DNA of 64,000 nucleotides from assembly GCA_965235115.1 (NCBI GenBank), contig OZ249437.1, positions 48,856,001 to 48,920,000 on the forward strand, given 5' to 3'. The stretch's first letter is position 1. Every line of letters begins with the position of its first letter. Positions 30,001 through 36,000 of this stretch are shown here, piece by piece. The DNA is from Laetmonice hystrix. Taxonomy: Eukaryota. Made by a program: the position numbers.

Positions 30001-33000
30001 GTGCCTAAGGTTCAAGGCAAGTTATGCTCTCACCTTGAGTAAAAACAATGTCATCCCAATTCAAGCAAGGAACATTCAAGAAAAAGGAGAACTACTTAGT
30101 AGACTGAAAAGATTTCCAACATGTTACTGGGGTCTGTACTGATGGCTCATGGCTTCAATTTTTCTTACACAATGCCCCCTTCTAAGAAGCAGGAAATGCT
30201 ACCCATTACAAATGACTATCCATCGTAAAACCACTGGAGTTGAACAACACATAACACTACCAGGGGTTGGGGGGGGGGGGGAAGACACACTACCTTGCCT
30301 TCCTCCTGGCACCAGAGGGCACCAAGCTGATTGTGCATCTCCACAATCTAGGGTTGAGGAGCCTGGAGGCTCCATGAGCCCAGTTGTAATAAAACCTCAG
30401 TTGAGACCCTTACAGTTAGTAAATTACACACGGTTACCTCCCCTACCCACCAAATCTTTAGGTTTACCCAAAGGTGACTCTTTATTAACTTTTCTCAGTG
30501 ACAGTATACTCTGAACATGAATTGGGGCATGACCACTACACCTGCCTTGTCACTGATCATGGCCGCGTCCCCTCCCTCCCACTTTCCTTGAGACCCTCTC
30601 ATGTTTCTATTGTGATGCACTGACAGACTATAACTGCTTGGTAGTCTTCATGGATGAAGGATCTGAATAACAGGAGTAAGCACATCCGCTTATGTACAGC
30701 CCTGCCCAACTGGCATACAAAACTATACACTTTTCACACATCAGCTAACAAAGTTAGATCTGAATTTGAACTACATAATTGGGAAACAAATTAAAAAAAA
30801 AGGAAGTAAGAAATACATTCATTAACCAAAGTTCTGAATAAATACCCAAATTCTAGTTTCTGCTTATACACTAATATCAGTATTTGAAACATGTATGCCA
30901 GATACAGCGCTGGAATTTAACACATGCCCGGATGCCATTTGAGCCTAATTTTCATTCCAGGCGCCTTAAAATGCCTCAGTCATATGCCCTGGTAGTTTGT
31001 AGAAAATTCTGGTCAAAATTTCAATGTACAGCTCTTTTTCTAAAGTTGCTGGCCTGTAACGTGGATCAAAATTTCAGATGGACTCCATCTTGGGAGGGCT
31101 ACTGAAGGCAGTTGAAACAAGTGCCATGATTCTGAACTCTAGATACAAGCTGTGATTATTTATTATTAAAAGACATCCTTTCCACATGTTTTTTGATGTT
31201 GTTAATAATATGATATTTTTGGGGGGTTATTTTCAGATTTGGTTGTCAGGCTAGTAAGCCGCTAGTTTCTATACATGTCAGACTGGTAACTTTTTCAAGG
31301 TAAGCCTGACTGGTTTGCTGGTAACAAAGCTGAATTTCGCTGTCTGATAACTCTAAGCTTGAAAAAAACATGATTTTTATTTTTCCTAAACATGACATGA
31401 ACCTCTCCTTTAGAGATTCTGTCAACATTTCAGCTGCACAAGCTACTAGTACGGAAGGAACATGAACTCTAAATGTTAAATTATCAGCATTTGAGATTTT
31501 ATTTCAAATCTCAGACTGTCCAGATTTAAGTCCCCTACAACATAATACATGTACTCTAAATAGTAAACCATCGGCAACAGTACTGGCTGCCTATGTGATA
31601 GTTCATTTTATTTCACTTTTTTTAATCAATGAAGGCATAGGTCAACACACTCAATTTACTTTGTGTCCTTTCTCCCCATGCCAAGCCTGCATTGTAATTG
31701 GACAAAGGCATTTGTGATTTGCACCAACATGATATGATAACTGCTTCTAAACTGGGTTAAACGAGCACAAATTACAGCTGGGTTGATCAAAACAAAGTTA
31801 ATTGTGCTGTGAGTTTGAGAGAGCAGCAAAAACAATCACAAAATACCCACTCCATACTTTCTCTGGCATCCAGTGATACAGCTTGCCTAGGTTTCTATCC
31901 AGGACTCTACCCAAAATTTTGCGCCTATTTCTTTTGTTTTTTTTTGGTAAGGGGTTCCATATTATCTGTAATCACGTTATCAGAGGACTATACATGTGAT
32001 AAAATATTTGCAAAAACCTATTTGCAGCTTCAATCTAGCAAGGTTTAGACAAGGTTAATTACAAGGCAGATGCATACATGTGTTTCTCATGGTCAACTGA
32101 GTAAGTCTAATGTAGGCCTAACAGGAAAAATCTTTTCTTTCTATTCCATATTTCAACACAAGGAATAAAGACCACTTAGACCAGGGTGTGAAATTAGGGG
32201 GGGGGGGGGTGCCATGTAGTGGGAGCTTCGAATTGAAGGCTGTTTTTGCCTACCAACCAATAGCAGTATAATATCATGGGTATCAAAGCTACCCAAGGGG
32301 ATTACAAAAGGACGGGGGGGGGGGAGGCCTTTGTCCAGAAAATGTTTGCCAATTTAAAGAGGGGGGGTCATAATAATTTTAAGTTGTTTCCATTAAATAT
32401 CATTGAAATAGAATAGTTTCGAGCCCAATTCCTGAATATAAGTGCCGGTGTACAAAGAAAACATATTTTATAGGGACACTCTAAGTGGCATTCCTCACCC
32501 CTTTCCCAAACGGCCCGATCTAGGTCCATCAACACTGCATATCATTATATGAGTCACAAACTTGTAATGGGATGACCCAGATCAACCCAAGCCATGCCAC
32601 GCGCTATCAGCAACTATGATAGCGCAGTGAAGACACCGGCTTACATGCCCACAAGATTGTCAAGAGAAAATGGTGAAGCTAGTTGTCTGAAGTATTGTAG
32701 CCAGTCATGTCCAGATGGGGTGTCTCTTTTCTCTATACCAAAAGAGGAAACCCTGAAGAGAAAGTGGATGAACTTATAACAGCTCAAGAAGGGGTGGTTC
32801 TAGGCTATGTGTGTAGCACTTGACCACTTCGGAGATGCCCATCTCTGTGGCTCATACATCCACCCCAAAACCTCTTGTTCTGCTCCAACATCCTCCTCCT
32901 CATCTATCCCACTTCCAGAATCGTAGAAATTTTCCATCTCATAACTGGATTCATCATTAGAAAAGGAGTTATCTGAATCTGAAGATGCCATGACCCTATA

Positions 33001-36000
33001 TCTTATTGCTGCTCCAGGCTCTGTTTACAATTTTGTGACGTCACCCACCACAGTGGAGCACTCAGTGGTGCCGAACAGAGCGTTTTCAGCACGGGGATGA
33101 TGTTACCAACTCCCGTCACTCACAGCGGGGTTGGTAAGGGTGTGTATGTTGGGGGATCCGTAGAAGATGTTTTTTGTGAAATATATTCCAACTTACAAGT
33201 AAAGTGGCATGATTATGACCCCCCCTCTTTAAGGTTTTAATACTTAGGCCTAGATATTCAGTATTGCAATTTTCTTTTAATCCGAGTGATATCCAGGTGC
33301 ACTGAAAAAAAAACAGGCAAACTGAAATAAATCTGGGTGCATTGGATTAGGGACCCTTCATGCCTGACACCCAGTTTCACACCCTGAACAGAGAGGCCCT
33401 ATTTTTTTTATGGCCATTCAACTGATATCTAAAACAAATAAATCTTATCCAAGTTCTGAAATAATGAAGAAAAAAAGCATAACATGTTAGGCCTACATGT
33501 ATACAAGTGTCAGACTCCATGTCCCATGCGCGTCATCTCCCAGACTCCATGCCCCACTCACCCCGAGTCAGGTTGTCAAGTCAACGGGCGGCAGTCGCCC
33601 ATGTTCCCGATACGTGGCGGTCTTTAAACTGGGCAGATACATGCCAATTTGGTTGATCAATTAAATGGGGCGCCTAAGTATGTCACGAGAATTCAAGAGA
33701 TTTCGCGTTGTCGGGACAAGGAGCAGATAGCCCCGCTGGTTTAACATTGCGATGGCCATAGGGAACAGTGACAGTCAACTTTAAAATATTTTCATTCTGC
33801 AGTGAAGTTGCTGTTAATATTTCAACATTACAATACATGATAGCTGGTATGTTTACTCTGGGATAAAGTTTGTTTTATAGTTTTGAAAGTTAGATTGTGA
33901 ATATACAGGCTGGTTTTTGTAAACCTGTCGGCCCTGCCAATGCTAATCCTATGGGGAAATTTTTGACGTACGTTTGGTGCTATCGCGAGCTGTTTTGAGG
34001 CTATTTAACGTCATTTGCATATCCAGGTCACGAGACTTAGGCGCCCTATTAATACCGTCCGACTAGGCCTAATGAAATGATTGCTAAAAACTATTATTTT
34101 TTAAGGAGAAATGTCAACTGGAGAATGAAATGTAGTCTAACGTTACACTTGGGACATGGAGTCTGACAGAATTATAGTCGATTCGCCCCAGGTCGGTTTC
34201 GACCCGGGTCGGTTTCGCCCCACAACCTAGTCGATTCGCCCCACCCCTAGTCGTTTCGCCCCACTCTCGAAGTCGTTTCGCCCCACACACCTAAGTTACC
34301 CTAAGTTCTTTAACCACACTGGAGCTTTTATAGTTAGTTGGTAGGCCATTACTAATACTGCCTCGTCTCGACGATGGGCCTTGGCCGCCACCGGGCCTCG
34401 GAGGGGAGAAGCGGGCCGGGCGGGGACGTCCTGGCACCCGTTCGAAGGGTCGGGCGTCAGGGTCGGAAGCGGGGACTGGGTGGAGTGAGGCAGGCCGGTT
34501 GCCGGCGGGCGGGCGGGTGGCTGCGGCGGTTGCAGGCTCACGATCCCGTCTAGGGCACTAGGCCGATACGGCCTACGCGAACCCGCCTACAGACACAGCT
34601 CCGCCGGTCGTCAGCGGCTCGCTACCCGGCCGCCTGGCTGCCGGGCCGTGGAGGTGGGGAGCCCGGTACGGGCCGGCAACAGCACGCGGTAGCCGGTAGT
34701 TAGCAGCTCGCTCCGGGCCGGACGGTCGGCCTTAATTGGTTCACAAAACGACTTGTTTACTGGACTGGATAGTATCAAGACTCAAGAGACAATAAAAACG
34801 TAGACTGATAGAATGATAGAGTCAGTTAGCGTCCAGTCTGGACTGGGGCGAAACGACTTTCCGAGTGGGGCGAATCGTCTTCTACCAGTGGGGCGAATCG
34901 TCTTTTCGAGTGGGGCGAATCGACCGGGGCGAATCGGAAGTGGGGCGAATCGACTATTTACCCTCTCACATAGGCCTACTGGGACATGGCGTGCAACATG
35001 GAGTGACAATTGCACAGGCTGTAGTTTGGGAGTTTTACACTTACAGTAGGCCTAACGTTACAAATTACAATACGATACAGGGCATTTGAATTTTGAGACT
35101 GAAAGTTGAAACTGAAAAAGTCAAAGCCTGCAAATGTTATAACCTGGCTGAAGAGTTTGAGCTTGTTTGCCATCAATAGAATAACTAGCCTTAAATAAAA
35201 ATGTTCAGGCTTATACAACATGTTGATCATAAACCAAATAGCCTATAGAATTGGGATACAAGGCAGGCCTAACATAGGCCATAGGCCTCCCTTGTTTGTG
35301 GTAGGCCTAGTACTTATTTGATAGCGTCAGTGTCTTTATCACCTCGGCCTCCTTCGGCTTCGCCCCCCGACCTGCCCGATGTCTGTGTTTGTCAGTGTCA
35401 ACGCCGGCTGGACTCGGTGTTATTATAGGTGTTTGTTTGCTGCATTATAATGTTTGAATCCTAGTTTTGCACTAAGTGATTAATAAAATATCGTGTTTAG
35501 AATATACATACCACTAAATGATTGATGTATATGACTGGGATGTCTGGCTATTTACGGAGGATGTAGGGCACCTTGCACCCAATTTACGCCAAGTAGCAAC
35601 AACCAACACTTCCTGTACAATTACTTCCTGGAACAGCGGCACATCCTATCAAAAGAAGGTCGGCTGTTGAAACGGGAGGCATCACCCCCTGAAAACAGAA
35701 ATTAGATACAATCAAGTAGCACACTATGAAATTACTAAATTACTGATTTATTATAGTTTTTTAAAAGAAAAATGGGCAGAGAAATTTCGAAAACATATTT
35801 CAAAAAGAAATACTTGAAGCTTTTGCTATTTCATAATATCGTGAGTGTTCGGCAACTTCCGCTCCGTTGCCAAGAGACGGAGGGAAGTAAACCATCATGG
35901 AGGGTGCAGTCACAGCAAACATGAAGTCTGTCGAAAACTAAAACGCCAACGATCTTGTCATTTGAATCACTGCAGGGTCTACAGGAAACAGAGGTACTAT

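What the first reader, a model, noticed from the sequence alone, without database searches (positions are those of the whole stretch)
32358..33228. Kolobok-type relic keeping the 5' stubs of both convergent genes
Seen: perfect 17-bp TIRs and TTAA on both sides. A + strand THAP-like stub (32670-~32835) and a - strand acidic ORF stub (from 32991) point at each other and meet near 32835-32850. Established: Kolobok elements use TTAA TSDs and can carry a THAP-containing transposase plus a second, convergently oriented ORF. Inference: one internal deletion removed both 3' halves but kept both promoters and the cis ends. The perfect TIRs suggest mobilisation in trans by an autonomous two-gene partner elsewhere in the genome.
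Basis: partly seen in the sequence, partly recalled or inferred. Interest (0 to 1): 0.68.

Follow-up and report, generated by a model that had tools for sequence, protein, structure and literature searches.

The report
Deleted Kolobok-type transposon relic
This is an 871-base dead copy of a cut-and-paste "Kolobok" jumping gene that has lost its middle and keeps only its two ends and the first parts of its two genes; it is an ordinary piece of animal genome debris.

Summary
A perfect 17-bp inverted repeat (32358-32374 / 33212-33228) is flanked by TTAA on both sides. Inside, a + strand THAP remnant and a - strand acidic ORF point at each other and abut at about 32837-51.

TTAA duplication plus AG...CT termini are the published marks of Kolobok, as against piggyBac (PMC9587614). 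Kolobok transposases carry a THAP domain.

Both stubs have relatives on other public contigs:
- THAP: 57-66% identity to P0007, a true THAP protein.
- Acidic ORF: 80% identity over residues 1-50 to P0003/P0020, whose ORFs run on past the point where the window's homology stops.

This fits one internal deletion. It has two in-frame stops, a 9-residue gap and several frame changes, and its ATG is out of frame.

The second ORF is probably the N-terminus of a KolX (P2X7-ballast-like) accessory protein, but this is not proven. No long terminal direct repeats are present, so it is not KolobokP-type.

The source genome, the autonomous partner and other copies could not be searched.

Verdict: an ordinary non-autonomous Kolobok deletion derivative, a new member of a known kind, of low interest.

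The parts
32354..32357 (.). left TTAA, read as the target-site duplication
   Evidence: TTAA is a palindrome, so without an empty site it cannot be formally separated from the inverted repeat
32358..32374 (+). left terminal inverted repeat AGAGGGGGGGTCATAAT (5'-AG terminus)
   Evidence: 17/17 match with the right end
32375..32669 (+). left subterminal arm, upstream of the THAP remnant. It holds the 15-nt motif GTCACAAACTTGTAA at 32553-32567.
   Evidence: Apart from the TIR and this motif, the two arms are not alike.
32672..32839 (+). THAP zinc-finger remnant (pseudogene). It has stops at 32777-32779 and 32801-32803, a 9-residue gap, a 3-residue insertion and frame changes. The ATG at 32670 is out of frame.
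32837..32851 (.). deletion junction zone, where the THAP homology (+) and the ORF2 homology (-) abut or overlap by up to about 10 nt
   Evidence: the extent of the THAP match beyond 32836 may be chance
32803..32991 (-). 63-codon acidic ORF. Residues 1-50 (32991-32842) are the N-terminus of the element's second gene. Residues 51-63 are read-through, antisense to the THAP remnant. The stop is at 32800-32802.
32992..33211 (-). right subterminal arm, upstream of ORF2. It holds the inverted copy of the 15-nt motif at 33025-33039. Positions 33012-33158 match the translated upstream part of P0003 (29/49).
33212..33228 (-). right terminal inverted repeat (CT-3' terminus)
33229..33232 (.). right TTAA

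Best explanation
The stretch 32358-33228 is a non-autonomous, internally deleted copy of a two-gene Kolobok-superfamily DNA transposon. It is inserted at a TTAA in the intergenic region between a tropomodulin-like gene and a DNAH6-type dynein gene of a non-human animal.

The parent carried two genes pointing inwards: a THAP-bearing gene read from the left end (presumably the transposase) and, from the right end, a second gene with an acidic N-terminus, most likely KolX, the P2X7-ballast-like accessory protein of the Kol0 group. One deletion joined codon ~60-65 of the THAP gene to codon 50 of the second gene. This removed the catalytic part of the transposase and the folded part of the accessory protein.

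What is left cannot move on its own. It could be cut out and pasted only if a transposase from an intact relative recognises its 17-bp ends and subterminal sequence.

Shown: the ends, the TTAA, the two stubs, their relatives, the abutting homologies and the decay of the THAP stub.
Inferred: the Kolobok transposase itself, the KolX identity, the single-step deletion, the retention of promoters and past mobilisation in trans.
For: (1) Perfect 17-bp TIRs with TTAA on both sides; 0 of 100 shuffles give two matches.

(2) The termini are 5'-AG...CT-3'. PMC9587614 (Background read) says Kolobok makes TTAA duplications and, unlike piggyBac, has 5'-RR and YY-3' termini. PMC6004289 (passages, Table 5) lists ten full-length Xenopus Kolobok copies, all with AG termini and TTAA on 19 of 20 sides.

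(3) The THAP remnant scores Pfam E=4.4e-4. In the representative search, 16 proteins scored E<=1e-3; the closest full-coverage hits were P0007 (66%) and P0011 (54%). Both score above the THAP cut-off, at 50.2 and 53.1 bits. Kolobok transposases carry THAP + DDE + H2CH. In PMC6004289, the copies described as lacking the N-terminal region are the ones lacking the THAP C2CH motif (section 11 and Table 2 read), so THAP is N-terminal there (my inference).

(4) The second ORF is 40/50 identical to P0003. 38 columns are invariant across the window ORF, P0020, P0021 and P0003. The relatives continue for 30 or more residues beyond the window's last matching residue. P0003's translated upstream region also matches the window's right arm, 29/49.

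(5) Two-gene Kolobok lineages are described in PMC9587614 (sections 3, 9, 10, 12, 16 read).

(6) KolX leads. All ten best named Atlas hits for P0020 residues 1-80 share a family with the best of them, whose cluster carries P2RX7_C on 26% of its members; the score is only 0.77. The relatives' first exon ends in ...GNTDW or ...HSDW, which fits the W of the first ballast cysteine cluster PxWCxCx2C (PMC7016195, passage read).

(7) A 15-nt inverted motif lies 195 and 189 nt from the two ends, upstream of each ORF. 12 of 500 shuffles give any such pair; 1 of 500 gives one placed symmetrically.
Against: - No DDE transposase sequence could be tied to this family. The search for longer relatives of P0007 scored none of 768 candidates at E<=0.001. 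P0007 and P0011 are only 200 and 240 aa.
- No Pfam family matches the second ORF or its relatives P0020 and P0021, even at E<=10. The Atlas score of 0.77 is below the tool's 0.9 lead threshold.
- In what I read, a complementary-strand second gene is stated for KolobokP, not for Kol0.
- There is no second copy of the element or of its TIR in the window, and no transposase domain in any of the 202 stop-to-stop ORFs of 70 aa or more.
- The relatives come from unnamed contigs whose organism I did not establish. They need not be from this genome.
- The heavy decay of the THAP stub sits oddly with perfect TIRs, unless the family had long been non-autonomous before this insertion.
Confidence: 0.8

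Rival explanations
1. It derives from the KolobokP lineage. The - strand ORF would then be the start of the small His-Me finger (I-PpoI-like) nuclease that KolobokP encodes on the complementary strand, or the element would be a solo long terminal direct repeat (LTDR).
For: [quoted passage not shown] The 17-bp TIR fits that range.
Against: The two arms share no direct repeat. They share only the TIR and one 15-nt inverted motif. The length of 871 bp fits neither LTDR class (~450 or ~660 bp). The element holds coding remnants of both genes, which belong to the internal region. The only family lead for the ORF is P2RX7_C, not a nuclease. No nuclease sequences were on hand to compare, because the supplements are closed.
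Confidence: 0.08
2. It is a non-autonomous piggyBac element. That superfamily also targets TTAA, and a few of its families encode a KolX-like protein.
For: TTAA lies on both sides. [quoted passage not shown]
Against: The termini are AG...CT, the mark that the same paper uses to separate Kolobok from piggyBac. A THAP N-terminus is a Kolobok or P feature. I do not recall it for piggyBac, and this was not checked here.
Confidence: 0.03
3. It is a Kolobok-ended element, but not the product of one deletion. Instead it would be a chimera built in several steps (for example template switching during gap repair, or fragments captured between two ends), so the two stubs need not come from one parent.
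For: The THAP stub carries several further indels, so more than one event certainly hit the interior. The THAP relatives are less similar (57-66%) than the ORF2 relatives (80%).
Against: The two homologies abut with no foreign sequence between them. Each stub faces inwards from its own end, with about 240-310 nt of upstream sequence. This is the layout expected of a single parent.
Confidence: 0.07
4. It is not a mobile element: a chance inverted repeat around unrelated pseudogene fragments.
For: There is only one copy in the window.
Against: The repeat is a 17/17 match with TTAA on both sides, and 0 of 100 shuffles give two matches. Both stubs have relatives on several other contigs. The TIR 17-mer had 5 single, unpaired matches in the prokaryote genome collection, as chance would give.
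Confidence: 0.02

Closest known systems
Kolobok superfamily, Kol0 group (type Kolobok-1_XT; transposase + KolX), and its short derivatives such as the Xenopus T2-MITEs
   Same: TTAA duplication; 5'-AG / CT-3' termini (Xenopus T2-MITEs: TTAA + AGGRR; XKol copies: all AG); a THAP-bearing gene at one end; a second gene; a short non-autonomous form bounded by TIRs (PMC9587614, PMC6004289).
   Different: No DDE core is left to test. The second ORF keeps only an acidic N-terminus, so the ballast/zinc-cysteine domain that defines KolX is absent here. In what I read, the orientation of KolX in Kol0 elements is not stated. At 871 bp with gene stubs, it is a deletion derivative rather than a classic featureless MITE.
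KolobokP (Kojima and Bao 2022, PMC9587614)
   Same: Kolobok ends; TIRs of 11-18 bp; transposase on one strand and a small second gene on the other, convergent.
   Different: No long terminal direct repeats are present, and the length fits neither LTDR class. There is no evidence that the ORF is a His-Me nuclease.
piggyBac
   Same: TTAA target.
   Different: The termini are RR/YY, which is the stated difference from piggyBac (PMC9587614). A THAP stub is present.
P-element superfamily (THAP-bearing transposases)
   Same: An N-terminal THAP DNA-binding domain.
   Different: P elements make 8-bp duplications (recalled). Here the 8 nt on either side do not match; only TTAA does.

Membership tests
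Kolobok superfamily | [quoted passage not shown] | tested here: met
   TTAA at 32354-32357 and 33229-33232. No empty site was available to prove duplication.
Kolobok superfamily | termini 5'-RR ... YY-3' (AG in all full-length Xenopus copies) | tested here: met
   5'-AGAG...CTCT-3'. The criterion is from PMC9587614 (Background) and PMC6004289 (Table 5).
Kolobok superfamily | DDD/E transposase with C/DxxH signature and zinc finger (H2CH) | not testable with these tools
   This part is deleted from the copy. No longer relative of the THAP gene was found: 768 candidates, none at E<=0.001. No transposase domain lies in the window. The source genome was not on hand.
Kolobok superfamily | THAP DNA-binding domain in the transposase | tested here: inconclusive
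   A THAP remnant is present: Pfam E=4.4e-4, below the cut-off. The relatives P0007 and P0011 score above the cut-off. It is not shown that this THAP belongs to a transposase.
Kol0 group of Kolobok | second protein KolX with the P2X7 ballast fold (conserved zinc-binding cysteines) | tested here: inconclusive
   Only the 50-residue acidic N-terminus is left. There is no Pfam hit. The Atlas lead to P2RX7_C scores 0.77. The relatives' exon ends at W, as in PxWCxCx2C (PMC7016195).
KolobokP | long terminal direct repeats (~450 or ~660 bp), each with its own short TIRs | tested here: not met
   The arms share no direct repeats. Aligning the left arm against the reverse-complemented right arm shows only the TIR and one 15-nt motif.
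KolobokP | His-Me finger (I-PpoI-like) nuclease on the complementary strand | not testable with these tools
   The catalytic part of the ORF is deleted. No KolobokP nuclease sequence was available, because the supplements are closed.
piggyBac | TTAA target with piggyBac-type termini and a DDD transposase | tested here: not met
   TTAA is met, but the termini are RR/YY, which PMC9587614 gives as the difference from piggyBac. There is no piggyBac transposase domain in the element or the window.
P-element superfamily | 8-bp target-site duplication (recalled) | tested here: not met
   The flanking 8-mers caatttaa and ttaaggtt do not match.
non-autonomous deletion derivative of a DNA transposon | intact ends, no intact transposase, internal sequence colinear with the two ends of a longer element | tested here: inconclusive
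   The ends are intact and no transposase is present. Colinearity is shown only at protein level for the two stubs and the right arm. No full-length copy was seen.

The most novel reading that the evidence does not exclude
The deletion brought two inward-facing promoter regions to within about 320 nt of each other. Each carries the same 15-nt motif with a TRE/CRE-like core (the core names are recalled). If both fire, the relic would be transcribed convergently across the junction and give double-stranded RNA covering the 5' ends of both the transposase and the accessory gene. Such a relic would act as a built-in RNAi or piRNA trigger that silences its own autonomous relatives, rather than being a passive hitch-hiker.
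Probability: 0.05. Interest if true: 0.5.

Novelty: new member of a known kind. Interest (0 to 1): 0.15.

Why it matters
It matters little on its own. It is a correct repeat annotation for an intergenic stretch, and a pointer that this genome, or a near relative, has held a two-gene Kolobok family.

Its modest value is as a handle. The TIRs and the two stubs are good probes for finding the full-length element. That would show whether a THAP transposase and a KolX/ballast-type protein sit convergently in one element in this animal group. This bears on the published idea that the P2X7 ballast domain came from Kolobok KolX.

Tried and rejected
- Other copies in the window: none. The TIR search allowing 3 mismatches found only the two ends. 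blastn of the element and of both flanks against the window gave self-hits only.
They gave only short gene models (94-155 aa for ORF2) and nothing longer for the THAP gene. The one exhaustive search gave THAP proteins only; the top three are giant multi-THAP proteins with 11-17 matched stretches, which I did not pursue.
- TIR 17-mer against the prokaryote genome collection: 5 single unpaired hits in MAGs, which I take as chance. That collection cannot hold the host genome.
- Upstream start codon: P0007 begins MTQI, as does an ATG at 32572. The local score of 27 only equals the 95th percentile of shuffles, so I rejected it as evidence.
- Rfam on 31800-33800: one sub-threshold hit (snoZ247, 22.3 bits against a cut-off of 38, E=0.2), which I take as chance. 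There are no tandem repeats.
- Atlas on P0007: THAP clusters only, with no hint of the transposase type.
- Nested insertion: the flanks share two short inverted blocks in the same order, but there is no duplication and no blastn-level similarity. Left as a note.
- Not done: structure prediction and complex prediction. The stubs are too short or disordered, and no binding claim is made.
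Full report
**What is in the sequence.**
The window has no N. At 32354-32357 stands TTAA, followed by AGAGGGGGGGTCATAAT (32358-32374). The exact reverse complement stands at 33212-33228, followed by TTAA at 33229-33232. With up to 3 mismatches allowed, the 17-mer occurs only at these two places in the 64 kb. Dinucleotide shuffles give a mean of 0.16 matches, and 0 of 100 reach two. The arms extend to 20 nt at 95%. The element is 871 bp.

**The + strand stub.**
In the frame whose codons start at 32576, 32579 and so on, the translation reads ...GEASCLKYCSQSCPDGVSLFSIPKEETLKRKWMNL, then a stop, QLKKGWF, a second stop, and AMCVALDHFGD....
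- With X at the two stops (TAA 32777-32779, TAG 32801-32803), it matches Pfam THAP at E=4.4e-4 and 21.4 bits, under the 23.9-bit cut-off.
- The exhaustive search of 1.84 billion representatives gave 16 proteins at E<=1e-3 and 5 at E<=1e-10. The nearest proteins matching in a single stretch are P0007 (200 aa, 66%, E 2e-12) and P0011 (240 aa, 54%).
- Both are true THAP proteins, at 50.2 and 53.1 bits.
- tblastn of P0007 on the window gives 39/69 identities over 32672-32851, E 5e-18.

Against these relatives the window's copy lacks 9 residues (where P0007 has ITAKRDKSSMAH, the window has stop-QL). It also has 3 extra residues before DHF.

Pieces of the missing text appear in another frame: ELITAQEG and GYVCST in the ORF 32701-32823, against P0007's FITAKRD and YVCSDHF. 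My reading is that several small indels shift the frame back and forth.

The ATG at 32670 is one base out of the THAP frame. The stub is therefore a decayed pseudogene, cut off before the AVPTIF-type box that P0007 still has (GAVPCKYP).

**The - strand stub.**
From the ATG at 32991 runs a 63-codon ORF, MASSDSDNSFSNDESSYEMENFYDSGSGIDEEEDVGAEQEVLGWMYEPQR followed by WASPKWSSATHIA.
- A search among longer proteins found 1 relative among 7 candidates: P0003, 155 aa. It is 40/50 identical over residues 1-50 and unrelated after that.
- A second search found P0020 (94 aa) and P0021 (102 aa): 3 of 4 candidates passed, counting P0003 itself.
- In the four-way alignment, 38 columns are invariant, 37 of them within the first 49 residues.
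- The relatives run on after ...YEPQR/G for 30 or more residues, to ...RQGNTDW (P0003, P0020) or ...HSDW (P0021), before their models end in unrelated text.
- The window's last 13 codons are simply the antisense of the THAP remnant.
- P0003's model starts further upstream, and that part matches the window's right arm at 33012-33158 (29/49). The region upstream of the ORF therefore also belongs to the family.

The ORF2 homology ends at 32842. The secure THAP homology ends near 32836, and possibly at 32851. The two abut or overlap by at most about 10 nt, with nothing between them. This is what a single internal deletion would leave.

**Which kind of element.**
Two papers give the criteria.
- PMC9587614 (Kojima and Bao 2022; I read the outline, sections 3, 5, 8, 9, 10, 12 and 16, and search passages). 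Kolobok makes TTAA duplications and, unlike piggyBac, has 5'-RR and YY-3' termini. The original Kol0 group encodes a DDD/E transposase plus KolX. KolX resembles the P2X7 cytoplasmic ballast. [quoted passage not shown] A few piggyBac families also carry a KolX-like protein.
- PMC6004289 (Hikosaka et al. 2018; I read passages and section 11). Xenopus T2-MITEs have TTAA and terminal AGGRR. Ten full-length Kolobok copies all start with AG. Kolobok transposases have DDE, THAP and H2CH motifs. The copies lacking the N-terminal region lack the THAP C2CH motif.

The window's element has TTAA, AG...CT termini and a THAP stub at one end. This fits Kolobok and speaks against piggyBac. The 8-mers on either side do not match, which speaks against a P element (its 8-bp duplication is recalled).

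The two arms share no direct repeat, so the KolobokP architecture is not met.

**What the second ORF is.**
This is not settled.
- No Pfam family matches it or its relatives at E<=10.
- The Atlas gave, for P0020 residues 1-80, an unnamed cluster at 0.80 and a P2X7-intracellular-domain cluster (PF20478 on 26% of members) at 0.77. All ten best named hits share a family with the best of those ten. The tool rates anything under 0.9 as a lead only.
- PMC7016195 (passages read) gives the first ballast cysteine cluster as PxWCxCx2C. The relatives' first exon ends exactly at a W.
- I also recall that ballast-type proteins of invertebrates start with an acidic serine-rich stretch, a Y-x-F/Y-E-P motif and then GN..WC.CG.C. 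That is memory, not a test.

I put KolX at roughly 0.55, a His-Me nuclease at about 0.1, and something else for the rest.

**Other anatomy.**
- Apart from the TIRs, the arms share one inverted 15-nt motif, GTCACAAAMTTGTAA: 32553-32567 and 33025-33039, 14/15 matches.
- The two copies lie 195 and 189 nt from the ends, each upstream of its ORF.
- 12 of 500 dinucleotide shuffles give any such pair, and 1 of 500 gives one placed symmetrically.
- The left copy is preceded by TGAGTCA and the right one by TGACGTCA. I recall these as the TRE and CRE cores.
- This is the only hint that promoter elements were kept. Nothing shows that they work.
- There are no tandem repeats. Rfam gave only a sub-threshold hit.

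**Surroundings.**
I looked at host genes only as single stop-to-stop ORFs, exon by exon. All 202 ORFs of 70 aa or more were scanned against Pfam (150, 52; list).
- Friend-of-PRMT1 domain: 9355-9678, + strand.
- Methyltransf_32: 12779-13726, - strand.
- Tropomodulin exons: 21077-22279, - strand, with an LRR at 19467-19706.
- Dynein heavy chain: from 45600 to the end of the window, + strand.
- No transposase domain anywhere, so no autonomous partner lies in the window.

One dynein exon is closest to DNAH6 chains in the PDB. By my count from the printed alignment it shares 90 of 105 residues with the best chain, 8j07_g5. No chain is identical, and I do not take the contig for human. Tropomodulin and DNAH6 point to an animal.

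The element lies in the intergenic stretch between these genes, among other TIR-bounded repeats.

**What could not be done.**
- The source genome was not available, and the only open contig collection holds prokaryotes. There the TIR gave 5 single unpaired matches, as chance would.
- The search for longer relatives of the THAP gene found none among 768 candidates. The tool itself calls this weak evidence.
- The supplements of PMC9587614 hold the KolX alignment and the family sequences, and were closed.

**Verdict.**
This is a non-autonomous, internally deleted Kolobok-type transposon (confidence 0.8), probably from a Kol0-like transposase + KolX family. Its ends are perfect, but one gene stub is clearly dead. 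It is a new member of a known kind and of low interest.

A search of the library for KolX found one relevant paper: of 77 papers holding the term, 10 were listed, and the other nine listed are materials science. A search for P2X7 + ballast + transposon found the same single paper. The two-gene Kolobok biology itself is thinly covered, but this relic adds nothing new to it.

Noticed in passing
window 32110-32123 / 33485-33498 and 32182-32198 / 33370-33386: The flanks of the relic carry two short inverted blocks in the same order: ATGTAGGCCTAACA (14/14) and CAGGGTGTGAAATTAGG (15/17). The relic may therefore sit inside an older inverted-repeat element. No target duplication was seen, and there is no blastn-level similarity between the flanks.
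   Followed up: partly
window 33508-34168: A perfect 19-nt inverted repeat, TGTCAGACTCCATGTCCCA, with 623 nt between the arms, lies 280 bp downstream of the relic. It is probably another short TIR element.
   Followed up: no
window 34174-34957: Degenerate 34-42 nt inverted repeats built from GTCG(A/T)TTCGCCCCA-like subrepeats: a foldback-like repeat in the GC-richest stretch of the window.
   Followed up: no
window 44370-44692 and 59367-59641: Two MITE-like elements lie inside introns of the dynein gene. Their TIRs are 34 nt (94%) and 46 nt (87%, starting CAGGGGCCCGTCTTACTAAAC).
   Followed up: no
window 32553-32567 / 33025-33039: A shared 15-nt inverted motif lies upstream of both stubs and at equal distance from the ends. 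It has TGAGTCA or TGACGTCA at its edge (core names recalled). Only 1 of 500 shuffles gives a symmetric pair.
   Followed up: yes
window, many sites (e.g. 32196-32209, 32314-32324, 15677-15695, 26937-26950): Long runs of G or C (11-18 nt) are frequent in the window, and the relic's TIR itself holds a G7 run.
   Followed up: no
window 9355-9678 (+), 12779-13726 (-), 19467-22279 (-), 45600-64000 (+): Host genes seen as single exons: Friend-of-PRMT1 domain, Methyltransf_32, tropomodulin with an LRR, and a DNAH6-type axonemal dynein heavy chain.
   Followed up: partly
P0004, P0005, P0006 (representative library): Giant proteins of 3708-5662 aa match the THAP stub in 11-17 separate stretches, suggesting arrays of THAP-like units. 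They were not examined.
   Followed up: no
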